A stretch of 64,000 nucleotides of DNA from Candidatus Micrarchaeia archaeon. GTDB lineage: Archaea; Micrarchaeota; Micrarchaeia; Burarchaeales; JACRGF01. The stretch covers positions 575 through 64,574 of the forward strand of contig JAWAFC010000003.1 in NCBI GenBank assembly GCA_038890815.1. Reading direction: 5' to 3'. The first letter of the stretch is position 1. The number at the start of each line of letters is the position of its first letter. Positions 20,901 through 54,484 of this stretch are shown here, one piece after another. A program made the position numbers and the translations under genes. The notes below the pieces were generated by a model, which was given only the letters and a program-made list of their open reading frames with translations, did no database searches and was not told the origin of the DNA.

Positions 20901-23900
20901 CAATCTCATCATCTACAACGGCGACAGGGTGGCGCACAAGGTCGCATTCGGTGCGCTGTTATATGATTATCCGGCATTGCTGGATTGGTTTGGGGACAAG
21001 GAGCTGCCGCCATGCGGCAACTGCGATGTTACAGACCCGACCAGCGATTGTGCAAAGAGATGCGCCATTTATTTCAATGAGAGCGGCACTTGGTGGGCGA
21101 GCGATGATGAAACAGCAGGGAAGGTGGAAAACGATCCTCCTGCAGTGCGCCCAATGCCGGCTGGCATATTTGTCGTGATCGACATCGGGTATGGCCAGAA
21201 CATTGAGGAATACAATGAATATGTGGCTTGCGGCGAGGATGCGGGCTGCAGAGTCAGCAAAGGGATTGCGCTATTCTGGAGAGTGCTTTATGGAGAGCCG
21301 ATTCCAGCAAAAGTTTACGGGATTTTTGTTGCGAGCGGGGAGAAAGAGCTTGAGGTTTCGCTGGACAGAACAAAAGAAACTGGATGGGGATGTGCTGGCT
21401 ATTGCCAGTTTGATGAGAGATGCCTCGACACAAACTCGGAGTATTACAAGCTCTTCAAGGATTTCTGCGATGCTCCGGCCGAGATAAAGGATCAGGGCGG
21501 AAACATAATATGGAGTGGCAGCAAAAGAGATTGTTATAATCGGTGCAAAAACAGCATCAGCAGCAGTGCCGTTGATCTGAGACTCAAAAACAGCGAGTCC
21601 GACAACTCGGCCCGCGTCTGCTTCAGGAATGATGGCTGGAAGACGAGGCACCTGCGCGTGCTCGACTGGCTTGTTGCAAAAGATGATGGAGGCTCCGTGA
21701 GCCTGCCTTATCATGGAACTAACCAGCATCCGATAAACGAGAGCTACACTGTGTTTAAGGAAAGTGGCGGCACATATTCAAAGGCATTTGATATAATTCT
21801 CGCAACGGACATCCCCGAGCCTGAGGTGATCATCGGCGATGAGAGGGAGTTCGCCACGCGCAATTACGCCGATTCGCTACGCTTTGTTTCGCCGACACAG
21901 ATAAAATTCAGCATCAAGACGAGCGACAAGAGGGAGCTGTTCTACAGGGAAAAGGCTGACGGGGAGTGGAAGCCCTTCCTGCTTGTGAACGGCGTGGATG
22001 ATGGCAGGGGATGGAAGGCGATTGCAAGCAATGGCCAGACGCTCTATTTCCCAACAGATTTCAGCGGCTTTGGCCAGGATTGGCATGGCCAGATAGACAT
22101 TCTGGACAACGGCACAATTCTCCCTGGATGCACTTTGATACCGATGCCATTTGGTTGTGCCGGCCCCGGTATTGTTGTGGATGCCTCCTATGATGCGAGC
22201 GACGATTCCTTCTCTGGTTTCTCGGGTTGTGATGTGAGCCGGTATGAAAAAACCGTGAAGGGGGATGTCGTCTATGACTCTACCAACATGTACCAGAAGT
22301 GCCTTTCTGACGCTCGCGCGGAATGCGATGCGCAGGCTAAGAAATACGCTGATGAGATGTGCAGGCAGGACCCGGCTACCACGCCGTGCAAAAACAATGG
22401 ACCATGCCAGGCCAACCCAGACCCAAATGTGGGTGGAGACTGCTGCGCTGACTCCGACTGCTCCTGCCCGAGAAGCTGTGAACAGGGAGCTGGTTGCGAG
22501 CCTGACTATAGCTGCATCGACGAATGCAATGTCAAGTGGCAGAACTACATTGCCTGCATCTCGCCTTCTGGCGACTACTACAGCTCAAACTACGGTGCAT
22601 GCTATGCTGAGAAAAGCGCCGAGTGCGAGGCCAATTGGAGGAAGGACGTGACGCTCACCTATAAGAACGTCACCTGCAGCGGCCTGGCGACTACGGACGT
22701 GCCCTATGAGCACATCATCTACACGCCGCCAAACAGAGTGGTGTGGTGGTACAAGTTGGAAAATGGCCGGCTCGAAGAGCTGTTTAACTTCGGCTTGTCG
22801 GACAGCTTTGTTAATGGAGTCAACTCCTACTTTTATGTAGTCAGCAACGATAGCATGCTCGTTGGCTCGAGCGATGAGAGCATCATCCCAGTGCCAAAAA
22901 ACAACAAAATCACCTTCCAGTACGTTTTCACTTACAGATATCAGCTCACAAAGGGCAGCAACAAAATCATCAGGCTTGAATATGGCCTGCCTGTCGATGT
23001 CAAAAATGCCAGGCTGAACGTTATGCTTCCTGTCGACTCGCCCGTGTTCAGCTGGAAAGGGGATGCTATGATAAACCAGACCTATGATGATGATAAGATC
23101 AGGAACATCCCGCCGGGCGAGATGGGGTGCTTTGAGGCGCCTTTCCCAAGCTGGCCAACAAACAAGGGCTATGATCAGCTCGATGGCTATGTGATTTATG
23201 ATGCTGACGAGCTGGAGGACTACACGCGGTTGAAAAATAAGAATTTCTATAAAGAAGTCGGCCAGAGCTGGAGCAATGATAATGATAGGCTGTTCAACCA
23301 CGTGTGGGCTTACCAGTTCTTCGGAAGCAGTGCAGTGCCAAACAACCTCTATCCAGAGGCAACGAGGTTTGTCGAGCTTGCCGACTTTGACTGGGGGACA
23401 AGGCTGGGTGCTGTGGCGACATCGCCCGGAGGCTCGGTGACGCTCAAGAACAAAGCCGAAAGCGATGCGGTTGGCATAACGAACCACATAACCTATGAGG
23501 TGAGCAACGGCCTGTACCAGCATGTGTGTCCGGGTTATAAATGCCCTGATGGAGTTGATGGCAAGATCGTCCCGCCCATAAAACCGGATAAACCGAGCGA
23601 GAGGTATTCAGAAGATGATTGCAAGGGCGAAAACCCGCGTGCAGGGTGCCGGTACTTCTTCAGGGTTGATGGAGGTGGTGCCCTCACGCTTGCCGGGCTG
23701 GAGCCGGGCAGCTACAAAATAACTGAGAGCGTCAGCGACAAATCCATAGTCATAAACTCAAAGAGGACAGACATCGTGCTGCCGCTTATCTATGAAAGCT
23801 GGGACCCGACATTCTCCACCGTGATGAGCGGCAGTGAGATTTGCGTGAGGAACACCGATGAAAAGCCCAGGACTGTGACGCTGAAGGGTGGGTGTGGATG

Positions 23901-24985: not shown

Positions 24986-25231
24986 ATGGCTCAGGTCGCT
25001 GCGGTCGTGAGGATTTTCCCGCAGGATGCGGAGAGGGTCGAGGAGCTGAGGCAGAGAGTGGAGAGCGAGCTGCGCCCGAGCAGGATCGAGATCGAAGACA
25101 TAGGCTTTGGCGTGAAGGCGCTGCGGATCACGCTCATCCTCAGCGATGAGACGGGCGGCGATGTAGAGGAAAGGGTGAGGAGGATACCTGGCGTCAGCGA
25201 GGTGAGTGTGGAGAGCGTGGGGAGGCTTTAG
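24986..25231 (+). CDS. Translation elongation factor aEF-1 beta
   Basis: The sequence MAQVAAVVRIFPQDAERVEEL...IGFGVKALRITLILSDETGG...IPGVSEVSVESVGRL matches the conserved aEF1B layout. The longer track ORF starting at 24740 is an upstream extension that overlaps ORF-J. Confidence 0.75.
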   Translation: MAQVAAVVRIFPQDAERVEELRQRVESELRPSRIEIEDIGFGVKALRITLILSDETGGDVEERVRRIPGVSEVSVESVGRL

Positions 25232-25709
25232 TCATCTCCCTGAGCATCGCCATTATCCTCTCAACCCCGCGCGTGATTTTTTTCCAATGGCTTCCCTCCC
25301 AGTAGATCTGGCCACATCCATCGCAAAGCCAGAAGGTGGCATGCCGGGCTGTGAGGTCAGCGTGCACCCTCCCCTGCACTGCCTCGCGCCCCACGGTGCG
25401 CAGCCTGCCATTGCACTTTGGGCACAGCGTGCGCGAGGGAAAGTCCTCAATCGGTATTTCAAAATCGTGCGCGAGCTTGGCGAGCGCCTGCTCTGTGCTC
25501 AGCCCGCGCGGCACGAGGTAGGCGCGCACGCGATGCCGTCTCGCCCTGGCGGCGAGCTCAACATCCTGGGTGAGCAGCACTGCCCCCTTTTCCTTCGCCA
25601 GCGCCAGCAGGGCGTCGTCGCTGGCATCGGTGGGGTACAGCGTCTCGATGCCGAGGATGCGCAGCCAGCGGGCGAGCTTTTTCAGCATGACATCGGCGAC
25701 AAATATCAT
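25194..25709 (-). CDS. Mut7-C / DUF82 PIN-like RNase domain protein with a C-terminal zinc ribbon
   Basis: The N-terminus MIFVADVMLKKLARWLRILG is the canonical Mut7-C opening. The C-terminus carries CPKCNG...CDGCGQIYWEGSHW. Confidence 0.6.
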   Translation of the reverse strand: MIFVADVMLKKLARWLRILGIETLYPTDASDDALLALAKEKGAVLLTQDVELAARARRHRVRAYLVPRGLSTEQALAKLAHDFEIPIEDFPSRTLCPKCNGRLRTVGREAVQGRVHADLTARHATFWLCDGCGQIYWEGSHWKKITRGVERIMAMLREMTKASPRSPHSPR

Positions 25710-25745
25710 GAGATTAAAATGTTATCTGCTATTTTAAAGCACGGG

Positions 25746-28046
25746 GTCGCATTGATTCGTCGCATTCGGTTGGAAAATTGGAGAAGCCATCGCGCCACTG
25801 AGCTCACCTTCTCGAAAGGCACCAACCTGCTCGTTGGGCCCATGGGCGCGGGCAAGACGAGCGTTGTGGAGGCGGTGTGCTTCGCGCTGTATGGAACTTT
25901 TCCGGCGCTGCGGAGAAAGGAGGTTGAGCTGGATGCCGTGATAACGAGGGGGGAGAAAAGCGCGGCCGTTGAGCTCGAGTTCGAGCTGGATGGCCGGAGC
26001 TATAGCGTGCGGCGGGAGTTCGGGCGGGAGAGCAAAGCCAGGCTGGAGATCGATGGCAGGCTCGTGATCGAACAGCCGAAAAGGGTCACGGAGGAGCTGG
26101 AGAGGGCGCTCAGAGCTGACTACGAGGTTTTCGCGCGCGCCATATATGCCGAGCAGAACGGCATTGACGAGCTGCTGAGGCTCAGCCCAAAGGAAAGGAA
26201 AAAGAGGGTGGATGAGATACTGGGCATTCTGTTTTTTGAAAGGGCTGGTGATGGGGCAGGCCAGGTGGCTCGCAAAATCAAAGAGAGAAGCGAGGAGCTC
26301 GCAGCGCGGCTGGCCGAGTTGAAAGCCGAGGAGCTCGAGGTTGAGGTGGACGCGCTCAAGCGCGAGCTGGCCGAGGCAAAGGAGGAGGAAAAAAGGCTCG
26401 ACGAAGAGCTGCGCAGGCTTGGGGATGTCGCCGAAGCCAAGCAAGCGAGGGTGCGCGAGCTGGAGAGGAAGGAGAAGGAAGTGCGCGAGCTGCGCGAGGA
26501 GCTCGAAAGAAAGCGTGGCGAGCTGCTGGGCATGAAAGTGGAAAGGCCGGTGAGCGAGGACGAGCTCGCGCGCCTGGAGAGGGAGCTCAAAGAGGTCACC
26601 GCAAAGCTGAGGAATGCCGCAGAGCGGAGGAGGAGGGCTGAGGCCGACAAGAACGCAGCATCGCGCGCGCTCTGGGAAGTTGAGCGGCGGTACGAGGAGC
26701 TGACCGCACAGCTGAACAGGAAAAGGGAGCTGGAGAAGAAAAAGGGCGCGCTGGGCGTGACATATGCTGTGGCGCTCTCGGAGATTAAGGGTGCGCGGGA
26801 CAGGATAGAAAAGAGCCGCGCATGGCTTGCCATGCAGAGCAGTGTGCTGTCAGACCTGCGAGGCATCATGGCCGAGCTGGCCAGGCAGGGCACGACGTGC
26901 CCGGTGTGTGGCGGCCCGCTCACTGAGGAGAAGAGGCAGCACCTGCTCGAGGAGAAGAAAAAGCTGAAAGAGCATATCGAGGAGACGGTGGCGCAGAAGG
27001 AGGAGGAAATTAAGTTGCAGGAGAGAGAATTGGAAAACCTCGAGAAAAACGCGCGCATCCTTCAAGAGATTGAGGCTGAACTCTCACGTCTTGCCGTGAC
27101 ACAGGAGGAAGTTGAGAAAGTTGAGAAGGCGAAAGATGAGGCCCAAAGGGCGGAGCGCGAGGCTGCCGCGATGGCCGAGCAGGCTGAGGCGGAGGAAAAC
27201 GAGCTGCGGCATAGCCAGATACGGCTCAGCCAGGCAGTGATGGAGGCCAAGAAGGCGCTGAATGAGAGGGCGCGCGCCGAGAGGCTGAGGAAAGAAGTGA
27301 GCGAGCTTGAGGCGGAACTGGCTGAGAAGGCGTTCGATGAGAGGGAGCTCAAAGAGGCGAGGGAAGATGCCCAGCGGGTAATGCTTGCGATGGTAGAGTT
27401 AAAAGAGAAGATTTCCGGCAAGAGGAGCGTTGAGGAGGAGAAAGAGAAAAGGCTTGAGCTACTCCAGGGGAGGATCGCCGAGGCGCAAGAGCTCAGGAGG
27501 GAGGCCGAAATGGCTGCGAGAGCCGCAGAGCGAGTGGCCGCATGGGAGAATGCGCTGCGCGCAACACAGGCAGCACTGAGGGAGGTCTACATCGCAGAGA
27601 TAAATGGCGCGCTGGGGCTCATATGGCGCCAAATCTATCCCCATGCTGACTTCACTGAGGCGAGGATGAGAGTGGGTGAGGAGGACTACTCGCTCGAGTT
27701 AAAAGCTGGCAGCGAGTGGATTCCCGTGGAGGGGAGGGTGAGCGGAGGGGAGAGGGCCTGCGCCGCGCTCGCGCTGCGCATAGCGTTCGCCACCGTGCTC
27801 GTGCCCAATCTGTCCTGGCTTTTCCTTGATGAGCCCACGCACAACTTGGACGCTGAGGGTGTGGCCGCGCTGGCAAGGGCACTGCGTGAGGAGATACCGA
27901 AAGCGAAGGTGGAGCAGATCATCGTCATCACACACGATGAGAGACTGAGGGCGGCTGCCAGCGGGCAACTTTATGTGCTGTCGCGCGATAAGGCCACGGG
28001 GGGTGCGAGTGTGGCGGAGGCCGCGCGCGAGCTCGCGCTCATCTAG
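25746..28046 (+). CDS. rad50: Rad50/SbcC-family DNA repair ATPase (probable GTG or TTG start; the track ORF from 25206 is an artefactual N-terminal extension)
   Basis: It opens IRRIRLENWRSH with Walker A GPMGAGKTS. It has long coiled coils, a central zinc hook CPVCGGPL, the signature SGGERACAALALRIAF, Walker B LFLDEPTHNLD and an H-loop ITHDE. Confidence 0.8.
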   Translation, partial: VALIRRIRLENWRSHRATELTFSKGTNLLVGPMGAGKTSVVEAVCFALYGTFPALRRKEVELDAVITRGEKSAAVELEFELDGRSYSVRREFGRESKARLEIDGRLVIEQPKRVTEELERALRADYEVFARAIYAEQNGIDELLRLSPKERKKRVDEILGILFFERAGDGAGQVARKIKERSEELAARLAELKAEELEVEVDALKRELAEAKEEEKRLDEELRRLGDVAEAKQARVRELERKEKEVRELREELERKRGELLGMKVERPVSEDELARLERELKEVTAKLRNAAERRRRAEADKNAASRALWEVERRYEELTAQLNRKRELEKKKGALGVTYAVALSEIKGARDRIEKSRAWLAMQSSVLSDLRGIMAELARQGTTCPVCGGPLTEEKRQHLLEEKKKLKEHIEETVAQKEEEIKLQERELENLEKNARILQEIEAELSRLAVTQEEVEKVEKAKDEAQRAEREAAAMAEQAEAEENELRHSQIRLSQAVMEAKKALNERARAERLRKEVSELEAELAEKAFDERELKEAREDAQRVMLAMVELKEKISGKRSVEEEKEKRLELLQGRIAEAQELRREAEMAARAAERVAAWENALRATQAALREVYIAEINGALGLIWRQIYPHADFTEARMRVGEEDYSLELKAGSEWIPVEGRVSGGERACAALALRIAFATVLVPNLSWLFLDEPTHNLDAEGVAALARALREEIPKAKVEQIIVITHDERLRAAASGQLYVLSRDKATGGASVAEAARELALI

Positions 28047-28083
28047 GGGAAATAATAAATAGCAAACATAACAAAAGGATTGT

Positions 28084-28623
28084 ATGGTCGGAGAGGCCGT
28101 TGAGGGCGAGATAGGCAAGTGTTCTGAGCTTTATGATTCGGGGCTCAATGAGGAGGCGCTGCGGTGTTATGATGAGATAGTGCGTTTCATGCCCGAGCTG
28201 GGCATAGGGTGGTATCTCAAGGGGATGTGCCTGTACAAGCTGAACAGGTTCGATGAGGCCATCGCCTGCTTTGAGAAGGCCGGAAGCCTTGATAAGGACC
28301 AGTACCTGCCCTGGCAGGCCAAAGGCATGGCGCTCGTGAGGCTGTTCAAGTTTGAGGAGGCCATCGTCAGCTTCAAGGAGGCGCTTGAGAGAAATCCGCG
28401 CGATGTCGAGACGATGTTCCTTGTCGCGGCATGCTTCATTTTCATGGGGGATGATGAGAGGGCGCGCGAATGGGTGCGCACGGCCATGCGCTTCGATCCG
28501 CTCAAAACGAAGTCCTTGCTACAGACATTTTTTGAGACATTCGTGTTGCGCGATGAGAACATCACTGTGGATGAGAAGCTCAATATCCAGCACATGATAG
28601 ATGAGCTGGGGAAGGAGGAGTGA
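28084..28623 (+). CDS. TPR-repeat protein
   Basis: It has several 34-aa repeats with the W/LG/Y/A/F/A/P pattern (YLKGMCLYKLNRFDEAIACFEKA and similar). Confidence 0.6.
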   Translation: MVGEAVEGEIGKCSELYDSGLNEEALRCYDEIVRFMPELGIGWYLKGMCLYKLNRFDEAIACFEKAGSLDKDQYLPWQAKGMALVRLFKFEEAIVSFKEALERNPRDVETMFLVAACFIFMGDDERAREWVRTAMRFDPLKTKSLLQTFFETFVLRDENITVDEKLNIQHMIDELGKEE

Positions 28624-28814
28624 GCTACAGGATCTGAGGGAATATCCTTCTCACGTTGTCGAGATTTTCTTTCGGCAGGGAGGCGCGCACGCTGCTCAGG
28701 AAATCCTTGGGGCTCGGCCTCGGTGCAAACCAGGCGTATTGACCGGGCTTCACAACAGGGCTCGTGGTTTTTTTGGGCATACAGCCCTTTTGACCGGCCG
28801 CCTATTTAAATCCA

Positions 28815-29009
28815 TCAGGTGGCGGTGAACGCCATTTTCCTGCCACAGCATAGCGGAATATCGCGCGCCTTCCCGCAGTACTCGCACGCCAGCATGCCCT
28901 TCTCGAGCACCATCTCCTCGCCGCAGCACAGCGGGATGTCGATGGTACGGCCGCAGGCCGAGCACTTGAGCTTGTCAGGCGTGGTCGTGACTTTTTGTTT
29001 TCTGGCCAT
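28815..29009 (-). CDS. Small duplicated zinc-ribbon protein
   Basis: A 64-aa ORF in which CSACGRTIDIPLCCGEEM and CEYCGKARDIPLCCGRKM form a tandem Cys4-like duplication. Confidence 0.4.
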   Translation of the reverse strand: MARKQKVTTTPDKLKCSACGRTIDIPLCCGEEMVLEKGMLACEYCGKARDIPLCCGRKMAFTAT

Positions 29010-29609
29010 AAAACCACTTTAGAGGAGCAAGGGATAAAACTTCTTTCGGAAGGTTTTAAAAAGTGGAAAATTCAAAAAGGAAACATGCCCGTAGCGATGA
29101 AAGGACCTGAAACGGAACAGATTTATGAAAAGTGGAAACGATTAACCATAGAAGAGAAAATCAACGTGATAGGAAAGGTCAACCTTCCGGATGAAAAGAT
29201 GTACGAACTGTGGCAACTGCTTACCCCAGAAGAGAAAAAGCGCTTACGAGAATGGGCCAACAACCTATTTACCCATGAGGGGCTTGTAGCTTACAAATTT
29301 ATCCAAAGAGTAGAGAGGGCTATGGTGAGTAGAATAGAGGCATTGAGAGAGGCAGGGCCGCAGGAGAAAGAACAGATTTATGGAATGTGGAAACGATTAA
29401 CCATAGAAGAGAAAATCAACGTGATAGGAAAGGTCAACCTTCCGGATGAAAAGATGTACGAACTGTGGCAACTGCTTACCCCAGAAGAGAAACAGTATGT
29501 CCAAACTAACGTCGACCCATTCACCCCAGAGGGGCTCATACTCTTCAAATTTATGGAGATAGTAAAAAACGTTGAAAAGCAAAAGATGGAAAAGCAAAAG
29601 ATGGAATAG
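28995..29609 (+). CDS. Hypothetical K/E-rich protein with an internal 35-aa duplication; it lies in an AT-rich island and the true start may be ~29085
   Basis: A 204-aa ORF. EQIYxxWKRLTIEEKINVIGKVNLPDEKMYELWQLLTPEEK occurs twice, encoded by a 106-nt perfect DNA repeat. Confidence 0.45.
   Translation: MFSGHKTTLEEQGIKLLSEGFKKWKIQKGNMPVAMKGPETEQIYEKWKRLTIEEKINVIGKVNLPDEKMYELWQLLTPEEKKRLREWANNLFTHEGLVAYKFIQRVERAMVSRIEALREAGPQEKEQIYGMWKRLTIEEKINVIGKVNLPDEKMYELWQLLTPEEKQYVQTNVDPFTPEGLILFKFMEIVKNVEKQKMEKQKME
29133..29238 (+). repeat. Copy 1 of a 106-nt perfect direct repeat (copy 2 at 29388-29493)
   Basis: The sequence is identical from tggaaacgattaaccatagaag to ccagaagagaaa, and the two copies are 255 nt apart. 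Confidence 0.85.
29388..29493 (+). repeat. Copy 2 of the 106-nt perfect direct repeat
   Basis: Identical to 29133-29238. Confidence 0.85.
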
Positions 29610-29641
29610 AAAAGAAAAATCTCTATAACACACCGACCTTA

Positions 29642-30385
29642 ATGATATGCCAGATCGGGTGCTTAGGATCGACGGAAGAATTTATTTTCTCATTAAAACA
29701 GGCGAGACGCGAGAGGTGTGAGGAAACGCAAAAATTCCTCGAGCCGATAGCACACATTAAGCCGAAGAAAGAACTGCCCACAGTAAGGGAAGGTGTGATT
29801 TCTAAAAAAGAGCTTGAGGCGCTAAGGAAAAATAGCTTGGAGGTGGCGTTGCCCGATGGCAGAAAGGTTATGCTCGATCCTGAAAAGGCTGAGGTGAGGG
29901 TAAGGGATGGCGTACAGAGGTTTGATGTGAGGGCTGTGGGTAGTGCTGAGGCGCTGAGAAATGCCGACTTCGCCGCGAACAGTTATGGTGCCTATATCGC
30001 GGTGGGCGGGAAGCTCTACACAATAGATTTCAAAAGAGGAAAGGTGGAGGGGGAGATTCTGGAGGATGTTGAGAGAAAGGAGGGGAGACTTGGGCGCATG
30101 GCGCTGAGTGCTGGCGAGGAAAGCTTTTTCGTTGTCCCTGATGGGGGTGGAGGCTTGTATGCCTTCTCGTCAGTAAAACGGAGGATAGATTATGTTCCTC
30201 TCAAAACCATCCGGTCGCAGGAGGGAAGCATAGAGAACCCAAGCATCGCCTATCTCAATGGTTTTGTGTTCATCACGGGAAACGGCAAGCATGGCGTTTT
30301 CAAAAACCTTTATGCCGTAGATGTCTCGGCGCTCGGCTCGGGCAAGGGCGTTCCTGTGATAATCCGCAGCATCCCTTTTTTTTGA
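29642..30385 (+). CDS. Hypothetical protein (AT-rich island)
   Basis: A 247-aa ORF with no recognisable motif. Its lower GC contrasts with the flanking genes. Confidence 0.4.
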   Translation: MICQIGCLGSTEEFIFSLKQARRERCEETQKFLEPIAHIKPKKELPTVREGVISKKELEALRKNSLEVALPDGRKVMLDPEKAEVRVRDGVQRFDVRAVGSAEALRNADFAANSYGAYIAVGGKLYTIDFKRGKVEGEILEDVERKEGRLGRMALSAGEESFFVVPDGGGGLYAFSSVKRRIDYVPLKTIRSQEGSIENPSIAYLNGFVFITGNGKHGVFKNLYAVDVSALGSGKGVPVIIRSIPFF

Positions 30386-30516
30386 CGAGAAGAAAGGGAA
30401 AAATCCCATGATGAAGGTAGTAAGAGGTAAGCTTTACCTGAGCGCAGAAGGCTGGAAACACGTGTACGTGTTCGATCCTACGACGAACTTTGTTGAAAAA
30501 TTGAGGATTGAGTGAA

Positions 30517-31521
30517 TCATTCTCTCAGCGCCCGTGCGGCCTCTTCCGGCGGCAGGGAATTGATGTAGAGGCCGGTGCAGAACTCGTAGCCCGCCCACAG
30601 CGACAGGCGAGGGGTGAGCTCGAGGTGGCAGTGGTAGGATGGCTCGCCCGCCAGCGGACCAGTGTGCAGGTGGAAGTTGTATGGTGGGTGGTTGAGCATG
30701 GCATCGAGGCGGGCAAGCACGGCCTTGAGCGCGCGGGCCAGCGAGAGGCGCTCTTCTTCGGTCAGCTCTGTGAGCTGGTCGGTGTGCCTCTTTGGCACAA
30801 ACCATGTCTCAAAGTGAAAGCGCGAGGCGAAGGGACAGAAGGCGAAGGTGTGCTCATCCTCGAACACAAGGCGGTCGGCCTCGAGCCGCCGCGCCGCGCA
30901 GAAGTAGCAGGCTCCCTGCCTGGCCGCAAAGGCCCGGTTGCCGGCGATCTCATCCTCAATGAGCGGAGGTACGATGTCCTGCGAGATGAGCTGGGTGTGG
31001 GTGTGGCGCAGTGAAGCGCCCGCCTCGCGCCCCTCGTTCTTGAATATGGCGACATAGCGAAGCCTTCGGTTGTCGCGCAGGGCATTCGTGCGCTCGCAGT
31101 AAACATCGATGATGCGGGCGATGTGCTCGGCGGGCAGCTCGCTGAGCGTGCGTTCATGCTCTGGTGTCTCAACGATGACTTCGTGCGTGCCATAGGCGGC
31201 CGGAAAGTCGGGCGAGGTGGCATTGAATTTGTTCGGGAAAACGCGGATGAGCCAGCCACCCTGCTGGGTGGGCACGCTGCCGGCCGCCACATCGGCCGGG
31301 GCAGGGAGAAATCGGTAGGGGGGGTTTGCCTCCACGCGTGCGATCTCGGGCGGGGTGAGATGCTCATTGCCGGGGCAGAAGAAGCATGTGCCCTCCTCAG
31401 CGACAGCCCTCTGCTGGATGAAGTCGGTTGGCCTCTTGGCTCTGTTCTTGGCGATGATGACGCCACGCCTGAGGATTGGGTCCCAGCGCAGCTCGTTCTT
31501 CTCCATGCTGAGCGCATGCAT
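30517..31521 (-). CDS. galT: Galactose-1-phosphate uridylyltransferase (HIT family)
   Basis: It has the Zn site CFFCPGNEH, the active-site HxHxQ (RHTHTQLI) and a second half-domain HCHLELTP. Confidence 0.75.
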   Translation of the reverse strand: MHALSMEKNELRWDPILRRGVIIAKNRAKRPTDFIQQRAVAEEGTCFFCPGNEHLTPPEIARVEANPPYRFLPAPADVAAGSVPTQQGGWLIRVFPNKFNATSPDFPAAYGTHEVIVETPEHERTLSELPAEHIARIIDVYCERTNALRDNRRLRYVAIFKNEGREAGASLRHTHTQLISQDIVPPLIEDEIAGNRAFAARQGACYFCAARRLEADRLVFEDEHTFAFCPFASRFHFETWFVPKRHTDQLTELTEEERLSLARALKAVLARLDAMLNHPPYNFHLHTGPLAGEPSYHCHLELTPRLSLWAGYEFCTGLYINSLPPEEAARALRE

Positions 31522-31526
31522 TCCGT

Positions 31527-33029
31527 TTATAAAAAGGCTTCTACATCCTGCTTTCGCTTTGCCTGCGCGGCCTCAAAGTTTTTGGCGAGCAATGAGAAGC
31601 TTTCCCCCCGGCTGCTGGCCTTGCTCCTGCGCTGGCGGATGCGAATGAACACTGGCTGGCTCACGGCCTCGCCCACCAGCAGGGCCTCGCCCGTGCGCAG
31701 CGTGGTGATGGCATCCAGCATGGCCTTGTCGATGCCTTCACAGGACTCGCCGATGTGCTGGATGTCATAGGGATTGGTGACTCTGAGGATGAGGTGGGAA
31801 TTGCACTGCGACAGGGCTGTTGTGGAGAGGTGTTTTGGCCTCTGCGAGATGAGCACCAGCGAGGCGCCGAACTTGCGCCCCTCTCGCGCAATTGTTATGA
31901 TGGGCCCTCTCGAGAGGGCCTCGCTCTGAGCGGTCTTCTCGGGCGCGAAGTTGTGCGCCTCCTCGATGAACAGCACGAATGGAGGGATTTTCTCCTTCTT
32001 CCTGGCCTTGAAAAGGCGGCGGGCGAAGTGCGCCACGATGAGCTGCTTCTTCTTCTGGTTGTCGATTGGCGAGAGATCGAGCACGCATAGCCGGCCCGGC
32101 TGAGCGAGCTCATCGAGCGAGGGCTTGTCGGCCTTACCGAAAAGTTTGAGGCTCTGCAGCTCGGCCAGCCAGGCAATGAGCGAGGCCTTCGTCTTCCTGT
32201 CCTCATCGCTGGCCGATATGGCGGCCATGACATCATCAAGCCCGTATGCCTCGCCGTTGGCTTTCTTTCGCCTCTTCAGCTCGCTCACAATGGCGATGAG
32301 CGAGCGCCGCTGTGAGCGCGAGAGCTCGGGCAGGAATTCGGCGAGCGAGGCGGGCGCCAGGCGGTGCAGCGCGATGCGAATGTCCTTGCCATCGATGACT
32401 GTGGTGCGGGCGGCATAGTCGCCCGACTTGAAGCCTGTGTACTCGCCGTGCACATCGACAACGATCACTGCGGGGCGGCCTGCCTCCGGCTTGCGCTCGA
32501 GCAGCTCCTCGATGACAACGGATGTGGCGTAGGATTTCCCAGAGCCCGAGATCCCGAGGATGGCGAGATGTTTTTGGAGGAAGGCATCGAGGCGCAGGCA
32601 GGCGCTGATCGTGTGGTGCTCGAGCTGTCCGATGTTGAGCCCGCCCTCCTCGAAACCCAGGAAATCCCTGAGCAGGCCCTCATCGGCAGACAGCACTTTA
32701 GCCCCGGGTGCTGCCGGAAAGAGCGGCCTGCCGATCGTGCTGCCATTCACAACGCCCAGCGCGCGCGCATTTGCCACGGCATACTCCCACTCAGTGACAG
32801 GGAAGTTGAGGCGCAGGGGCGCGCCCCTCTCATACTCGGCCACCGACTCGGCCCTCTCGAAGTAGCGGTTGGCGCGCGTGATGTCGGTCACGCACGCCAG
32901 CAGAAGGCCATCCTCGGTCTGGGTCTGAACAAACTGGCCCTTGCGCACGCCCTTACTCGTGATGACGAAGGAGAAGCTGGCTGTTGAGGGACCATCAAAT
33001 GTGGATATGACCGTGCCGAGCTCGTGCAT
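31527..33029 (-). CDS. herA: HerA-like (DUF87) hexameric ATPase
   Basis: The 500-aa size and Walker A ILGISGSGKSYATSVVIEELL fit. Walker B is VIVVDVHGEY and CVLDLS...FIEEAHNF is HerA-like. Confidence 0.55.
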   Translation of the reverse strand: MHELGTVISTFDGPSTASFSFVITSKGVRKGQFVQTQTEDGLLLACVTDITRANRYFERAESVAEYERGAPLRLNFPVTEWEYAVANARALGVVNGSTIGRPLFPAAPGAKVLSADEGLLRDFLGFEEGGLNIGQLEHHTISACLRLDAFLQKHLAILGISGSGKSYATSVVIEELLERKPEAGRPAVIVVDVHGEYTGFKSGDYAARTTVIDGKDIRIALHRLAPASLAEFLPELSRSQRRSLIAIVSELKRRKKANGEAYGLDDVMAAISASDEDRKTKASLIAWLAELQSLKLFGKADKPSLDELAQPGRLCVLDLSPIDNQKKKQLIVAHFARRLFKARKKEKIPPFVLFIEEAHNFAPEKTAQSEALSRGPIITIAREGRKFGASLVLISQRPKHLSTTALSQCNSHLILRVTNPYDIQHIGESCEGIDKAMLDAITTLRTGEALLVGEAVSQPVFIRIRQRRSKASSRGESFSLLAKNFEAAQAKRKQDVEAFL

Positions 33030-33043
33030 TCTGGCAAATTGGG

Positions 33044-33090
33044 CTTTCTGTTTTTAAATAAGCTTTGGTGGGGGAGTTCCGGTGAAGGCC
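33044..33090 (-). promoter_or_regulatory. herA promoter: TATA (TTATTTAAAAAC on minus) plus an upstream conserved element GCCTTCACCGGAACTCCCCCACCAAAGC. The element recurs at 47655-47705 and partly at 54815-54850
   Basis: The nearly identical 25-35 nt block GG(T)GGGGG.GGAGTTCCGGTGAA(G/A)GC lies next to a TTTAAA box. Both copies sit ~25-35 nt upstream of minus-strand starts. Confidence 0.4.
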
Positions 33091-33722
33091 TATGAGGGAA
33101 CCTGCTGGCGGTATTCCTTAGCCTGCTCTTCAGTGAGATGCTGGTAAACTACAACTTCACCATACTTATTGCGCGGGACTTCAAGTCCGTACTCTCCTTT
33201 TTCGGCGAGTTTTTCTATCTCTCCTAGACCCTTCACCTTAATATTGCGTGTCTCGGGGTTATAAACATAATATTTTCCGCCTAAGTATCCAGTTCTCTGC
33301 ATCGCGAGCTCGATTTTTTTCGTGCCCGTTCTCGTCAACGGCGCTGCGATGTTGTCCGCCTTTTTCTCAATGTCTTGGGCGATATCGTTTTTTCCTTCGC
33401 TGTAATTACTGGCTGCGAGCACATAATAGCTGAGCACTCGGCCAATCTGGGAGTCCGCGGTTATTTTGATGCCGTTGTTCTTTGCCCAATTAATCAGATC
33501 CTCAACTTTTTTAGCCAGCCGTTCAAATGTTTGGTGAAGATCAATATTTTGGAGATTTTGGGGAAAATATCCTCGTATTTTGCGGTATAGTTCTGAACTA
33601 AACATATCATAATAAAGTTTTTTGAAAAACAAAAACCCAAAAGTGCACTCTTCAATTAACTTTTTAATTTCCTCCCTTGACTTTTTAATTTCCTCCTGGC
33701 TTACAGACTGCTCTATGGGCAT
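33090..33722 (-). CDS. Hypothetical K/E-rich protein (AT-rich island)
   Basis: A 210-aa ORF of low GC with no recognisable motif. Confidence 0.4.
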   Translation of the reverse strand: MPIEQSVSQEEIKKSREEIKKLIEECTFGFLFFKKLYYDMFSSELYRKIRGYFPQNLQNIDLHQTFERLAKKVEDLINWAKNNGIKITADSQIGRVLSYYVLAASNYSEGKNDIAQDIEKKADNIAAPLTRTGTKKIELAMQRTGYLGGKYYVYNPETRNIKVKGLGEIEKLAEKGEYGLEVPRNKYGEVVVYQHLTEEQAKEYRQQVPS

Positions 33723-34046
33723 TTACGACACCCCCTCCTCCAGAACGGTGAATTCGCTTTTGGATATTTTATTCTCAAATTCCTTCATTTTGGAGTAATC
33801 GCCTGTGGCATAAGCGCCTGCGGCAATGCTCACGAGCTCGCTGTAAAGCTCAAAATAATCCCTTTCCTCGATTTTGCCGCTTTTTCTCAGGCTTTCCAGG
33901 AGCTTTTTCAGAGCCTCGTAGGAGTTTTCTATTTTCCTCCGAGCCTCTCTGAATTTTCTGAGCGGCTCGGGGCTGTTTTCCCGAAGCGCTTTGGCATATG
34001 CCTTCAGCAGGTTTTCGAAAAACTCTTCCTCCTCATCGCTCATCAT
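33723..34046 (-). CDS. Hypothetical acidic helical protein (AT-rich island), adjacent to or coupled with the downstream 210-aa ORF
   Basis: A 107-aa ORF whose stop abuts the start of the next ORF. Confidence 0.4.
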   Translation of the reverse strand: MMSDEEEEFFENLLKAYAKALRENSPEPLRKFREARRKIENSYEALKKLLESLRKSGKIEERDYFELYSELVSIAAGAYATGDYSKMKEFENKISKSEFTVLEEGVS

Positions 34047-34731
34047 GCTTTTCGACCTCTTTGTATGAAATCTCCGGAGCTCTTTTTTTGTATAGGTAGC
34101 TCTTCTTTAGATTGCTTCCAGTAAGCGAAAAATCTTCTCCCAAATCCTTCACAGCCGGCTCCAGTATTTCGGGCACTCCCTCCTCAGCGAGTATCCCGCT
34201 GATGCCTATCTCCCGCAGGCCGTATTCCTCGGTGAAGAGGAAGGCTGCTTTGCCGCCAATTATGAAGAGTGCCTTCTCTGAGGCCAACAGCGTGGCCTGC
34301 GCTATCCCAAGTTGGTATAGCCCGATGTCTTCACCTCTCCAGGCTATCAGCCTTCCGCTGTCATAAACCACGAGCGTTTTGCCCACAGCGAATGGTTGTG
34401 GGTGTGCCAGCGGGCTCCCGAGAGAGACATAGCTCAGCTGGTTATTTTCGATGCGATACAGGTGGCTGAATCCCCTGCCGAGGATGAATGTGCCTGCCCT
34501 TGTTCTGATGACATCGAACTGCCTGTCCCCCTCCATCCTCCTCACGGCACTGACGTCCAGCGCTTTTCCGAGCTCCTCAACGTAGATCACGTCCCCGAAG
34601 TTCCTGTAGCTGAGCCTGCTCAGCCCGGGCGCGCACGCGAGCGGCGAAAGCGCGAGCTCGGCGGCCAACACCGCTGCCGCGGCTCTTCTTGCCATTCTTG
34701 AGAAGGTGCGGGCGTGCTGCGTTTTGTGCAT
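34033..34731 (-). CDS. Hypothetical secreted protein
   Basis: A 232-aa ORF with a signal-peptide-like AAAAVLAAELALSPLACAPG. Confidence 0.4.
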   Translation of the reverse strand: MHKTQHARTFSRMARRAAAAVLAAELALSPLACAPGLSRLSYRNFGDVIYVEELGKALDVSAVRRMEGDRQFDVIRTRAGTFILGRGFSHLYRIENNQLSYVSLGSPLAHPQPFAVGKTLVVYDSGRLIAWRGEDIGLYQLGIAQATLLASEKALFIIGGKAAFLFTEEYGLREIGISGILAEEGVPEILEPAVKDLGEDFSLTGSNLKKSYLYKKRAPEISYKEVEKHDER

Positions 34732-34768
34732 GCGAAGATTATGCCTTTTTGTTTATAAAGAGCTTTGC

Positions 34769-35257
34769 CTAGCGTGCTGTCACGAGCAGGAGCAGTGTGT
34801 AGAGCAGGCGCAGCGTCCACTCGAGCGCGATGAGGAAGGCCGCGCTGGCGAGCAATGGGGGAAGGGGAATGGCGGCGGGCGAAAGCGAAAAGGTCAGTAT
34901 GGTGTGGGGGGAGAGCAGGATGGCGGCAAGCAGGGTGAGCGGGATGAGTTTGATGACCTCGTGCGCGATGCGCTCATCGTAATAGGCGAGCAGGCGCGTG
35001 GCTGCGATGACTGACGAGGACAGCGCGATGACCAGCTCGTAGTTCTGGCTCGGGGAGATGAGCAGCAGCGTCAGCGCGAGGATGATGAATGCCACGGCTG
35101 CATACAGGGGAAACAGGATGAGATACTTGAGGAAGAATACTGCGGCGCGGAGGAAGATGCGCACGCGCCTGAATGGCGCGCCTGGCTGCACGCGCGTGTC
35201 GACGCGCACGATGTCACGGTTCTGGAGCAGCAGTATGATCCGCCAGACGATGAGCAT
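34769..35257 (-). CDS. Hypothetical polytopic membrane protein
   Basis: A 162-aa ORF with four hydrophobic segments. Confidence 0.4.
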   Translation of the reverse strand: MLIVWRIILLLQNRDIVRVDTRVQPGAPFRRVRIFLRAAVFFLKYLILFPLYAAVAFIILALTLLLISPSQNYELVIALSSSVIAATRLLAYYDERIAHEVIKLIPLTLLAAILLSPHTILTFSLSPAAIPLPPLLASAAFLIALEWTLRLLYTLLLLVTAR

Positions 35258-35375
35258 GTATGCGGCGATGAAGAGGGTGAGGGTGGATAGGCTCAGGGCA
35301 TAGGCGGCCTCGAGGGGTATGCCAAGCCCCTGCGCGCTCTGTTGAACTGCAGCAGTATAGTTGAATGCGATGTGC

Positions 35376-36413
35376 TCACCTGAAAGGCCTGCTGTCCCTG
35401 CGCAGGCGCAGCGCGCTCGCCGACAGGCCTGCCGTGAGGACGAGCTCGCGATAGATGCGCTCGAGCTCGTCGCGCTCCAGCGCGGCGCGCAGATCGGCCT
35501 CTATGAGCACGGCTGGATAGGCATACTTCTCGTTGATGCAGGCGAGAGCGTAGGTGAGCGATGCCACGGCATCGGGTTGGACAGCGCCCCAGATGAACTC
35601 CGCCCGCAGAGGCCGGTCCTGCGCTCCGGGCTTTACATACAGCACTGCGATACGGCCACCCCAGACGCCAAAATCCTTAAGTATGCTGTGCTGGGCTGTG
35701 GGGGAGGAGAGCGGCAGGGCTGACGTGCGTTCGCCCTTGGCGAGCAGGAAGTGCAGGAAGGAGGTGTCGTTTGCATCGATTGGCTCGCCGAGCGCTCTTG
35801 CGAGCAGCTCGACGAACCTTTTCCCCCGGCTGTCCTTGACTATGCCGATGAGCATGCAGCCGGCTGAGATGGAGAGGTTGTAGAGGGAGATGAAGGCTTC
35901 AACCACCTCTCTGTAGAGCTGCTTGAGCTCGCTCTCCTCCCCGGGCCTGTCTGCGAGCTGAGGCACGAGCGAGCCATCGAGCAGCAGGGCGTGGGGGGAC
36001 CATTTGTTCAGGGCCTCGCTGGCGCAGGCCAGCTCTTTTTTTAGCCTGAAGAGCGACTTGTGCAGGTTGAAATCGTGCGTATCGAGCGCGCTCAGCGAGT
36101 CGGCATCGGGCTCTGGGAAGGCGCCTGGGTGATAGGCATAGTTTACCAGCGCGCCATTGTCATATTCAAACAGCACAGCGACGGCGCGGGACAGCACGAG
36201 GTCAACGCCATGGAACTCCTGGGCCACGAGGCCGCCATCGACGGCAACGATGCGGCCGTTGGGAGGGTTGTACTCCACTTTTCGGATGAGCTCGCGCTCG
36301 AGAGCTTCGGGCAGCAGGAGGTCGGGCTTTTGCCTGAGCGAGGCTGCCAGCTCCTTCCTCCGTCTCTCTCTTTCTGCCGCCTCCTTGAGAATGCGGGCGA
36401 GCTTCTCGCGCAC
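35376..36413 (-). CDS. nurA: NurA-like 5'-3' nuclease (tentative)
   Basis: A 345-aa ORF. The N-terminal IVAVDGGL and later LLLDGSLVP resemble the NurA catalytic Asp motifs. A herA gene lies nearby. Confidence 0.45.
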   Translation of the reverse strand: MREKLARILKEAAERERRRKELAASLRQKPDLLLPEALERELIRKVEYNPPNGRIVAVDGGLVAQEFHGVDLVLSRAVAVLFEYDNGALVNYAYHPGAFPEPDADSLSALDTHDFNLHKSLFRLKKELACASEALNKWSPHALLLDGSLVPQLADRPGEESELKQLYREVVEAFISLYNLSISAGCMLIGIVKDSRGKRFVELLARALGEPIDANDTSFLHFLLAKGERTSALPLSSPTAQHSILKDFGVWGGRIAVLYVKPGAQDRPLRAEFIWGAVQPDAVASLTYALACINEKYAYPAVLIEADLRAALERDELERIYRELVLTAGLSASALRLRRDSRPFR

Positions 36414-36463: not shown

Positions 36464-36811
36464 ATGATGAAACAGGTCATCGTGGTGAGGAGCGACCTCA
36501 AGCTCGGTGTGGGGAAGATCGCCGCGCAGGTGGCGCATGCCTCGCTCGAGGCGCTCAGGGCAGCAAAGGCAAAAACGCCAGAAGTGGTTATGGAGTGGGA
36601 GAGGGAAGGGCAGAGGAAGGTTGTGGTGAAGATTGGAGGGGAGAGGGAGTTGCTGGAGCTGTATGAAATGGTGAGGAAGGAGTTGCCATGCGCGCTCATA
36701 CGCGATGCAGGCCTGACGCAGATCCCGCCCGGCACGCCCACTGCGATAGGCATTGGGCCTGGGGAGGAAAAAGTAATAGATAAATATACTGGCAAGCTAA
36801 AACTGCTGTGA
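36464..36811 (+). CDS. pth2: Peptidyl-tRNA hydrolase, archaeal type (Pth2)
   Basis: The sequence KQVIVVRSDLKLGVGKIAAQVAHASL...IRDAGLTQIPPGTPTAIGIGP matches Pth2. Confidence 0.8.
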   Translation: MMKQVIVVRSDLKLGVGKIAAQVAHASLEALRAAKAKTPEVVMEWEREGQRKVVVKIGGERELLELYEMVRKELPCALIRDAGLTQIPPGTPTAIGIGPGEEKVIDKYTGKLKLL

Positions 36812-54171: not shown

Positions 54172-54484
54172 TATTTGGCAAACAATATGTTTAAGAATTC
54201 AATGTAACTATAGTTACAATATGTTGCTATATTGTTTTGATTTAAAAATTAAAGGGGTTAAAGCCTACAATACTCTAAAAAGACGTTTCTACTATGCGCT
54301 ATCAAAACAAAAATTCAAAATACTCTCCAGAACAACAAAATCAGTCTTAATAACTCCAGATTCTTCGGAAAAAGATGTAGATGAATTTTTTTCTCAATTT
54401 GAAGGTTTTATAGAAGTATACAAAGCAAAGATTTCCAACATTGAGCGAATACTCTAAAAATAGTGGAAGTGTGGGGGGTGTCGC

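What the first reader, a model, noticed from the sequence alone, without database searches (positions are those of the whole stretch)
25746..36413. The DNA end-resection genes are dispersed: rad50 has no adjacent mre11, and herA and nurA-like are separated by an AT-rich insert
In thermophilic archaea herA, mre11, rad50 and nurA are almost always one operon. Here rad50 (25746-28046) stands alone, transcribed divergently from a Mut7-C nuclease gene. No Mre11-like phosphoesterase is present in the window. HerA-like (31527-33029) and NurA-like (35376-36413) are on the same strand but 2.3 kb apart, with four unrelated genes between them. Two of those genes form an AT-rich block (33090-34046). Either an insertion broke the operon, or the HerA-like ATPase belongs to a different system such as a defence system.
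Basis: partly seen in the sequence, partly recalled or inferred. Interest (0 to 1): 0.55.

Follow-up and report, generated by a model that had tools for sequence, protein, structure and literature searches.

The report
Micrarchaeota-type nurA–herA–rad50 gene neighbourhood
The DNA-end-resection genes in this window are real, but their loose layout without an adjacent mre11 is the normal, conserved arrangement of this group of tiny archaea (Micrarchaeota), and the AT-rich block between nurA and herA is a small insert of orphan genes found only in this lineage.

Summary
The window carries a true Rad50, HerA and NurA. It has no Mre11. Four ORFs (2,346 bp) separate nurA from herA, and two of them are AT-rich.

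The window comes from a Candidatus Micrarchaeia (DPANN) MAG. Across about 80 related genomes the same neighbourhood recurs: PTH2 | nurA – variable slot – herA – galT-like … rad50 (convergent) | Mut7-C (divergent).
- The nurA–herA spacer ranges from 13 bp to 4.4 kb and holds unrelated cargo.
- None of the 26 Micrarchaeota-labelled loci has mre11 beside rad50.
- All 5 Aenigmatarchaeota-like loci have mre11–rad50 at the equivalent place.

So the genes are not dispersed. They form a conserved loose cluster that never was the crenarchaeal four-gene operon.

A real insertion did occur. A 1.74-kb three-gene block with low GC3 (g232–g107–g210, about 33030–34768) is shared with a sister species. It is absent from the next relative, where the g162 gene abuts herA. 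herA keeps its own TATA-like promoter.

The defence-system reading is not supported.

I could not determine whether mre11 lies elsewhere in the genome or is lost.

Verdict: ordinary, a new member of a known kind, with one modestly interesting open point.

The parts
24989..25231 (+). aEF-1beta-like gene upstream of rad50. It belongs to the conserved aS21–EF1beta–rad50 stretch.
   Evidence: The ORF's C-terminal 80 aa resemble cluster c5. The c5 counterparts in relatives carry PF00736 EF1_GNE next to rad50. The window copy was assigned by eye and was not scanned.
25194..25709 (-). Mut7-C (PIN-like) nuclease-domain gene, divergent from rad50.
   Evidence: Pfam Mut7-C 145.6 bits. The same divergent pairing occurs in 12 of 26 Micrarchaeota loci.
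25752..28046 (+). rad50. TTG start at 25752, with an alternative ATG at 25719.
   Evidence: Pfam SMC_N and Rad50_zn_hook. PDB Rad50 hits at E 3e-37. NCBIfam best family is Rad50 at 207 bits. ATPase motifs and the CPVC hook are intact. Start-codon check.
28084..28623 (+). TPR protein immediately downstream of rad50. It is conserved in close relatives at 93% and 87% identity.
   Evidence: Pfam TPR families. tblastn against relatives.
28986..30516 (+). Second hypervariable slot, holding orphan genes g204 (28995–29609) and g247 (29642–30385). It has low GC3.
   Evidence: blastn shows 70 bp at this place in L008 and different content in L004. GC3 is 0.48 and 0.57. No family hits. g204 has an internal 126-nt duplication.
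30517..31521 (-). GalT/HIT-family nucleotidyl-transferase gene, 5 bp downstream of herA.
   Evidence: Pfam GalP_UDP_transf, HIT and DUF4921. It follows herA in 36 of 79 loci.
31527..33029 (-). herA, the hexameric DNA translocase/helicase that partners NurA.
   Evidence: DUF87 106.5 bits. PDB hits T. kodakarensis HerA 9x1l (1e-34) and S. solfataricus HerA 4d2i (1e-32). Walker A, Walker B and REGRK motifs are present. Orthologues at 49–88% identity in 79 loci.
33030..33089 (-). herA promoter region with a conserved element and a TATA-like box (TTATTTAAAAA) about 24 nt upstream of the ATG.
   Evidence: Conserved in the window, L008 and L004 in the DNA alignment. Upstream sequences. Promoter function is inferred, not shown.
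33090..34731 (-). Inserted three-gene orphan cassette: g232 (34033–34731, with an N-terminal hydrophobic, signal-like segment), g107 (33723–34046) and g210 (33090–33722). The genes overlap or abut, and a TATA-like box lies upstream of g232.
   Evidence: Absent in L004, present in L089 and L008. GC3 is 0.67, 0.60 and 0.47. No family hits. No relatives in viral or JGI metagenome contigs. Intergenic distances.
34769..35257 (-). g162, a hydrophobic orphan ORF with native-like composition. It is the older occupant of the nurA–herA slot.
   Evidence: GC3 is 0.84. Homologues at 69–78% identity lie directly after nurA in L089 and directly before herA in L004.
35376..36413 (-). nurA, the 5'-3' nuclease partner of HerA.
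   Evidence: Pfam NurA 47.5 bits, model positions 2–249 of 254. AF2 model at pLDDT 91. Foldseek top hits are NurA 2YGK, 9x1m_G and 3TAL. D59, E127 and D146 are invariant in 32 orthologues.
36464..36811 (+). PTH2 peptidyl-tRNA hydrolase, divergent from nurA. It is the conserved left border of the neighbourhood.
   Evidence: Pfam PTH2 141.9 bits. PTH2|nurA recurs.

Best explanation
This is the housekeeping double-strand-break end-processing gene set of a Micrarchaeia (DPANN) archaeon, in the arrangement typical of that phylum.

**Inferred mechanism (from the families, not tested here).** NurA forms a nuclease dimer and HerA a hexameric ATP-driven DNA translocase. Together they form the HerA–NurA resection machine. 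Rad50 is an SMC-like ATPase with a zinc hook that recognises and tethers DNA ends.

**Layout.** The genes lie in a loose cluster inherited across the phylum: PTH2 | nurA – slot – herA – galT-like – slot – rad50 (convergent) | Mut7-C. It is not an operon. nurA, the inserted cassette, herA and probably galT each have their own TATA-like promoter sequence.

**The two slots.** They flank herA–galT and tolerate insertions, and different lineages hold unrelated cargo there. In the common ancestor of this organism and its sister species, a 1.74-kb cassette of three orphan genes with low GC3 entered the nurA–herA slot next to the older occupant g162. These genes are most likely passengers.

**mre11.** It left its position upstream of rad50 at or near the base of Micrarchaeota. 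Most likely it is encoded elsewhere in the genome.
For: **Taxon and orthology.** The exact HerA and NurA are annotated in an NCBI Micrarchaeia MAG, and orthologues run through the phylum.

**Identity of the three proteins.**

**Synteny.**
- Individual loci are shown.
- 80 GTDB-representative loci were fetched and compared by tblastn and clustering.
- nurA lies upstream of herA on the same strand in 19 loci, with a gap of 13–4,362 bp.
- rad50 is convergent with herA in 35 of 36 loci.
- Mut7-C is divergent from rad50 in 12 loci.

**Slot cargo is heterogeneous.** It includes a Yip1 membrane protein, a PfkB kinase, an aspartyl protease, a CDF transporter and orphan genes.

**Dating the insertion.** L004 has g162 followed directly by herA. 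The window and JZ-2 bin178 have nurA–g162–g232–g107–g210–herA.

**Composition.** GC3 values are.

**Independent assemblies.** The same order appears in a Logan contig and in the NCBI MAG of the sister species.

**Mre11.**
- It is adjacent to rad50 only in the 5 Aenigmatarchaeota-like loci.
- It is not adjacent in any of the 26 Micrarchaeota loci.

**Promoter-like sequences.**
Against: - No transcription data exist, so the promoters are inferred from sequence only.
- 'Passenger' is a default, because the cassette genes have no detectable homologues or usable fold model. g107 is 95% identical between species whose HerA is 88% identical. That argues for strong constraint or recent exchange, not neutrality.
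- No Micrarchaeota mre11 was found anywhere, so 'encoded elsewhere' is an assumption.
- HerA and Rad50 score far below NCBIfam equivalog cut-offs.
- Taxon labels of loci are the depositors' own.
Confidence: 0.8

Rival explanations
1. Mre11 has been lost from Micrarchaeota altogether. Rad50 then works without it, or with a different nuclease such as the divergently encoded Mut7-C PIN-like protein or NurA–HerA.
For: - No mre11 lies next to rad50 in 26 Micrarchaeota loci.
- None lies within about 10 kb of herA in about 75 loci, or in the 64-kb window.
- All 5 Aenigmatarchaeota-like loci have mre11–rad50 at the syntenic site.
- Mut7-C|rad50 is a recurrent divergent pair, with spacers of 9–66 bp in eight of the eleven pairs and overlapping ORF calls in the other three.
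- The 120 best hits of a DPANN Mre11 profile carried only Aenigmatarchaeota or plain 'archaeon' labels.
- D. radiodurans is cited as doing resection with HerA–NurA alone (PMC12977600).
Against: - Only the herA/rad50 neighbourhood of each genome was sampled. That is about 1–2% of a roughly 1-Mb genome.
- Rad50 keeps all motifs and the hook. In every characterised system it acts with Mre11/SbcD (established knowledge).
- Mut7-C is missing from half of the loci.
Confidence: 0.15
2. The HerA-like ATPase belongs to a defence system, and the genes between nurA and herA are its variable sensor or effector cargo. A known precedent is the nurA–csm6–herA cluster in Pyrobaculum.
For: - PADLOC HerA models score up to 188 bits.
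- Anti-phage HerA structures are among the PDB hits.
- A variable slot between nurA and herA resembles a cargo site.
- The nurA–csm6–herA precedent is cited in PMC12977600.
Against: - Repair-HerA models and structures score higher than anti-phage ones.
- No Sir2, DUF4297 or Csm6 partner is present, and no neighbour gives a meaningful PADLOC hit.
- The gene is a conserved orthologue flanked by housekeeping genes across the phylum.
- Slot cargo is metabolic or membrane-related, or orphan, and the slot is empty in four loci.
Confidence: 0.05
3. The AT-rich insert is an assembly or binning artefact, a chimeric join of foreign DNA.
For: There are sharp drops in GC at 33.1–34.1 kb and 28.9–30.0 kb.
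Against: - The identical gene order is present in an independent Logan assembly (L001).
- The nurA–g162–g232 and g107–g210–herA joins are present in the sister species' assemblies.
- ORFs abut or overlap cleanly.
Confidence: 0.02

Closest known systems
herA–mre11–rad50–nurA operon of Sulfolobales and Thermococcales (reviewed in PMC8708640 and PMC12977600)
   Same: The same three protein families are present: Rad50 with a zinc hook, HerA and NurA. They are confirmed by profile, sequence and fold. The genes are still linked within 11 kb.
   Different: There is no mre11 in the cluster. The order is nurA…herA and then a convergent rad50. Unrelated genes are interspersed, and the genes appear to have separate promoters.
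T. kodakarensis HerA–NurA complex (PDB 9x1l–9x1p) and S. solfataricus HerA (4D2I) and NurA (2YGK)
   Same: These are the best structural and sequence matches for both proteins. The nuclease acidic residues and ATPase motifs are conserved.
   Different: Identity is low: NurA 11–17% in Foldseek alignments. NurA here is short (345 aa), like the Sulfolobus type rather than the roughly 400–430-aa Thermococcales chains. The HAS-barrel is only weakly detected.
Aenigmatarchaeota-type locus: herA followed by a convergent rad50–mre11
   Same: The convergent herA/rad50 geometry is the same, and HerA is about 50% identical.
   Different: Those loci keep mre11 abutting or overlapping rad50 (5 of 5). The Micrarchaeota loci do not (0 of 26).
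Bacterial herA–nurA of Deinococcus–Thermus
   Same: A HerA–NurA pair is encoded without an adjacent Mre11–Rad50 (PMC12977600).
   Different: Those genes form a two-gene operon in bacteria. Here the genome is archaeal, rad50 is nearby and the pair is split by cargo.
Anti-phage HerA systems (Sir2–HerA, DUF4297–HerA)
   Same: The HerA ATPase core is homologous.
   Different: There is no effector partner. The partner here is NurA, and the locus is a phylum-wide housekeeping one.

Membership tests
Rad50 | ABC-type ATPase head with Walker A, signature motif, Walker B/D-loop and H-loop split by a long coiled coil | tested here: met
   GPMGAGKTS, SGGER, LFLDEPTHNLD and ITHD are present. Pfam SMC_N spans residues 4–745. 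PDB Rad50 heads match at E 3e-37.
Rad50 | CxxC zinc hook at the apex of the coiled coil | tested here: met
   CPVC lies at 385–388 of 766. Pfam Rad50_zn_hook scores 28.0 bits against a 24.3 cut-off.
Rad50 | Reaches the NCBIfam Rad50 equivalog cut-off | tested here: not met
   The best score is 207 bits against a cut-off of 700. Rad50 models still rank first, ahead of arcadin-4 at 161 bits.
Rad50 | Encoded next to, and complexed with, Mre11/SbcD | tested here: not met
   No Mre11 is in the window or beside rad50 in 26 related loci. Complex formation cannot be tested here.
HerA (repair type) | DUF87/FtsK-like RecA core with Walker A, Walker B and an arginine finger | tested here: met
   Pfam DUF87 scores 106.5 bits. 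GISGSGKSY, VLFIEEAH and REGRKFG are present.
HerA (repair type) | N-terminal HAS-barrel | tested here: inconclusive
   Pfam HAS-barrel scores 17.7 bits, below the 25.2 cut-off. Several orthologues carry a precomputed PF09378 hit.
HerA (repair type) | Genomic partnership with NurA | tested here: met
   nurA lies 2.3 kb upstream on the same strand. It is adjacent or near in 19 related loci.
HerA (repair type) | Reaches the NCBIfam HerA equivalog cut-off | tested here: not met
   It scores 160 bits against a cut-off of 970. The repair models outrank the anti-phage models at 130 bits.
NurA | Pfam PF09376 above the gathering score over the whole domain | tested here: met
   47.5 bits against a cut-off of 21, covering model positions 2–249 of 254.
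NurA | RNase H-like NurA fold | tested here: met
   The AF2 model has pLDDT 91. Foldseek top hits are 2YGK (E 2.5e-12, TM 0.56/0.61), 9x1m_G and 3TAL.
NurA | Conserved catalytic acidic residues | tested here: inconclusive
   D59, E127 and D146 are invariant in 32 orthologues. Their equivalence to the published catalytic residues was not checked by superposition.
Canonical herA–mre11–rad50–nurA operon | Four contiguous co-oriented genes | tested here: not met
   mre11 is absent, rad50 is convergent with herA and other genes are interspersed.
Anti-phage HerA systems | Adjacent Sir2 or DUF4297 effector | tested here: not met
   Pfam and PADLOC scans of all neighbours gave no such domain.

The most novel reading that the evidence does not exclude
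Micrarchaeota as a phylum have dispensed with Mre11 but retained an intact zinc-hook Rad50 next to HerA–NurA. Rad50 would then act alone or with a non-Mre11 nuclease. The recurrently divergent Mut7-C PIN-like gene and NurA are the candidates.
Probability: 0.12. Interest if true: 0.7.

Novelty: new member of a known kind. Interest (0 to 1): 0.25.

Why it matters
The four-gene operon rule comes from a few cultivated thermophiles and does not transfer to DPANN archaea. Here the repair genes form a conserved but loose neighbourhood interrupted by slots that tolerate insertions. Annotators should therefore not read such spacing as operon decay or as a defence island.

The one point with wider interest is the missing mre11. 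It is consistently absent beside rad50 across Micrarchaeota, while the sister lineage keeps it at the same site. If mre11 is truly absent from these genomes, they would offer a natural case of Rad50 working without Mre11.

Tried and rejected
- **Reading beyond the window.** I looked up two edge ORFs with the look-up of encoding contigs. Neither exact product is on record.
- **Is there a Micrarchaeota mre11 elsewhere?** The evidence is inconclusive.
  - A word-indexed search with a DPANN Mre11 profile returned only Aenigmatarchaeota-type hits in its top 120.
  - An exhaustive representative search found 1,705 hits but gives no taxonomy.
  - Two cluster-name look-ups gave only 'Euryarchaeota archaeon' and 'DPANN group archaeon'.
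- **Literature.**
  - Seven full-text searches found no paper that treats Mre11/Rad50/HerA/NurA in Micrarchaeota.
  - The supplements of the 163-genome Micrarchaeota paper hold none of the six search terms (three KO numbers and the names Mre11, Rad50, HerA).
- **Function of the orphan genes.**
  - Pfam, NCBIfam, PADLOC and PHROGs gave nothing meaningful.
  - The g210 single-sequence AlphaFold model has pLDDT 51.5, so I did not search with it.
  - Viral and JGI metagenome scans for g107 and g210 found no real relatives.
- **Local duplication.** g232 and g247 are not paralogues: hhalign probability is 4.8% and pairwise BLAST is not significant.
- **Mobile-element signs.** No long direct or inverted repeats flank either AT-rich block. 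The window has no tRNA gene.
- **Hidden Mre11 near herA or rad50 in relatives.** Pfam at E ≤ 1 found only weak FecR and HIT hits in unannotated 290–350-aa neighbours.

Full report
**1. What is in the window**

The region has about 60% G+C with sharp low-GC dips. Profile searches identify the genes listed below.

| Coordinates | Strand | Gene |
|---|---|---|
| 25194–25709 | − | Mut7-C |
| 25746–28046 | + | Rad50 (SMC_N plus Rad50_zn_hook) |
| 28084–28623 | + | TPR protein |
| 28995–29609, 29642–30385 | + | two ORFs with no family (g204, g247) |
| 30517–31521 | − | GalT/HIT-family enzyme |
| 31527–33029 | − | HerA/DUF87 |
| 33090–35257 | − | four ORFs with no family: g210, g107, g232, g162 |
| 35376–36413 | − | NurA |
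| 36464 onward | mixed | PTH2, an M48 protease and a glycogen-debranching enzyme |

- **Rad50.**
  - Its best PDB sequence matches are M. jannaschii and P. furiosus Rad50 (E 3e-37 to 4e-30), far above SMC.
  - All ATPase motifs and a central CPVC hook are intact.
The start is ATG 25719 or TTG 25752.
- **HerA.** Its best PDB matches are the T. kodakarensis and S. solfataricus repair HerA proteins.
- **NurA.**
  - It has no sequence-level PDB hit.
  - An AlphaFold model built on 32 orthologues (pLDDT 91) matches S. solfataricus NurA 2YGK best.
  - The NurA chains of the T. kodakarensis HerA–NurA complex and P. furiosus NurA come next.
- **Mre11.**
  - I searched all stop-to-stop ORFs of 80 aa or more with a PDB-verified P. 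furiosus Mre11 and with an HMM of five DPANN Mre11.
  - Neither finds anything in the window.
- **Spacer and composition.**
  - The spacer is 2,346 bp and holds four ORFs.
  - g210 and g107 have GC 0.42 and 0.48, and GC3 0.47 and 0.60.
  - Flanking genes have GC3 0.74–0.84.

**2. Where it comes from**

The exact HerA and NurA proteins are annotated in an NCBI MAG of Candidatus Micrarchaeia, on a 128.6-kb contig. The identical ten-gene stretch occurs in an independent Logan assembly. HerA orthologues of 49–88% identity run through Micrarchaeota. The close relatives' isolate names (JZ, DRTY) look like site codes of the Tengchong geothermal-spring survey, PMC11094006, which one search listed but I did not read.

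**3. Comparative synteny**

I fetched 80 loci from GTDB species representatives, with ±10 kb around herA. I mapped the window's proteins onto them and clustered all ORFs. A conserved neighbourhood emerges:

PTH2(−) | nurA(+) – slot – herA(+) – galT-like(+) – slot – rad50(−) | Mut7-C(+) – EF1β

- **nurA and herA.**
  - nurA precedes herA on the same strand in 19 loci.
  - The gap ranges from 13 to 4,362 bp, with a median of 878 bp.
  - The gap is under 100 bp in four loci.
- **Slot cargo.** Where the slot is filled, the cargo differs from lineage to lineage. It includes a Yip1 plus zinc-ribbon membrane protein, a PfkB kinase, an aspartyl protease, a CDF transporter, lipoprotein-like ORFs and orphans.
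- **rad50.**
  - It is convergent with herA in 35 of 36 loci, 0.2–8.5 kb away.
  - The distance in the window is 3.5 kb.
- **Mut7-C.** It is divergent from rad50 in 12 of 26 Micrarchaeota loci.
- **Anstonellaceae-like subgroup.**
  - nurA has separated from herA.
  - In one genome nurA stays with GDE–PTH2 about 60 kb from herA on the same contig.
- **Surrounding genes.** They are housekeeping genes such as AlaRS, SAM synthetase, EF1β and aS21.

The genes are therefore not dispersed relative to their own lineage. This is the ancestral Micrarchaeota layout.

**4. The insertion**

- **Sister species (JZ-2 bin178).**
  - HerA is 88% identical and NurA 84%.
  - The order is the same: nurA–g162–g232 | g107–g210–herA. 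The bar marks a contig break.
- **Next relative (L004 and L088).**
  - HerA is 81% identical and NurA 74%.
  - The g162 homologue is followed about 110 bp later by herA.
- **The cassette.**
  - g232–g107–g210 spans about 33030–34768 (1.74 kb).
  - It entered after that split and joined the older occupant g162, whose GC3 of 0.84 looks native.
  - Its three genes overlap or abut (−14 and 0 bp) and follow a TATA-like box.
- **herA promoter.** A conserved element and a TATA-like box sit just upstream of herA in all three lineages. herA expression therefore need not depend on nurA read-through. This is inferred, not shown.
- **Second variable slot.**
  - The block 28986–30516 (g204 and g247) corresponds to 70 bp in the sister species.
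  - It corresponds to different content in L004.
- **No mobile-element or virus link.**
  - No flanking repeats or tRNA genes mark either block.
  - The cassette genes have no relatives in viral or JGI metagenome contigs and no family hits.
  - The g210 model is unusable.

**5. Defence hypothesis**

- PADLOC and NCBIfam anti-phage HerA models do hit HerA, as expected for homologous ATPases.
- Repair HerA models and structures score higher.
- No effector partner is present.
- The slot cargo is not defence-like.
- The locus is a phylum-wide housekeeping one.
- The nurA–csm6–herA cluster of Pyrobaculum is a known precedent for cargo between these genes (PMC12977600). Nothing comparable is seen here.

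**6. Mre11**

- In five loci that are Aenigmatarchaeota-labelled or unclassified DPANN, mre11 abuts or overlaps the start of rad50, at the site syntenic with the Micrarchaeota rad50.
- In all 26 Micrarchaeota loci where the region upstream of rad50 is visible, mre11 is missing. Mut7-C (divergent), a small 77–102-aa ORF or EF1β lies there instead.
- The mre11–rad50 pair was therefore broken at or near the base of Micrarchaeota.
- I could not decide whether mre11 moved or was lost.
  - The protein searches cannot be restricted by taxon, and hit names were uninformative.
  - The sequence outside the window was not retrievable.
  - The searchable literature is silent on the point.
- I consider relocation the more likely outcome, because only about 1–2% of each genome was sampled.

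**7. Verdict**

The operon-disruption reading is right only at the small scale of one orphan cassette specific to this lineage. The defence reading is not supported. The arrangement is the normal one for Micrarchaeota. It is a new member of known families with a lineage-typical gene order.

Interest is low to modest (0.25). It is raised slightly by the consistent absence of mre11 beside rad50 across the sampled Micrarchaeota, and one hmmsearch over complete genomes would settle that point.

Noticed in passing
window 28986-30516: This is a second hypervariable slot, between galT and the TPR–rad50 unit. It holds orphan genes g204 and g247, which have low GC3. The block corresponds to 70 bp in the sister species and to about 2.6 kb of other ORFs in L004. 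g204 contains an internal 126-nt duplication that is 98% identical (29115–29240 and 29370–29495).
   Followed up: partly
window 25194-25752 and loci L012, L013, L017, L022, L025, L029, L030, L037, L039, L043, L048: A Mut7-C (PIN-like) gene is divergently paired with rad50 in 12 of 26 Micrarchaeota loci. It occupies the side where mre11 sits in Aenigmatarchaeota-like loci. The spacer is 9–66 bp in eight of the eleven related loci, with overlapping ORF calls in the other three.
   Followed up: partly
window 54134-54457 (+), within the low-GC island 53901-55000: A 107-aa ORF resembles by eye the small protein (cluster c11, 77–102 aa) that lies directly upstream of rad50 in Anstonellaceae-like Micrarchaeota. 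In this genome it is unlinked from rad50 and sits in the most AT-rich island of the window, where GC falls to a minimum of 0.33.
   Followed up: no
window 30517-31521 and 36 related loci: A GalT/HIT-family nucleotidyl-transferase gene follows herA across Micrarchaeota. It lies 5 bp downstream here. In L007 a weakly HIT-like 291-aa ORF also lies upstream of rad50. I did not explore a possible functional link.
   Followed up: no
window 33723-34046 compared with L008 49-366: The orphan g107 is 95% identical in protein between two species. Between the same two species HerA is 88%, NurA 84%, Rad50 62% and neighbouring g210 58% identical. The N-terminal third of g210 is rearranged, while its C-terminal part is conserved.
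   Followed up: partly
window 28084-28623: The TPR protein just downstream of rad50 is 93% and 87% identical in the two close relatives. Rad50 itself is only 62% identical in both.
   Followed up: no
window 17941-24978 (+): A 2,345-aa cysteine-rich ORF with an N-terminal hydrophobic, signal-like segment ends just upstream of the EF1β-like gene. It contains a low-GC stretch at 22701–23300.
   Followed up: no
L004 1-100 and about 600-800: The JGI contig starts with a 50-nt direct duplication. The 3' end of its g162 homologue appears tandemly duplicated in the alignment, giving 221 aa instead of 162. This could be an assembly artefact or a real repeat.
   Followed up: no
L091 (JAOAJL010000002.1): In an Anstonellaceae-like genome nurA stays with GDE–PTH2, while herA–galT–rad50 lies about 60 kb away on the same contig. 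The ancestral cluster has therefore been split in that subgroup.
   Followed up: partly
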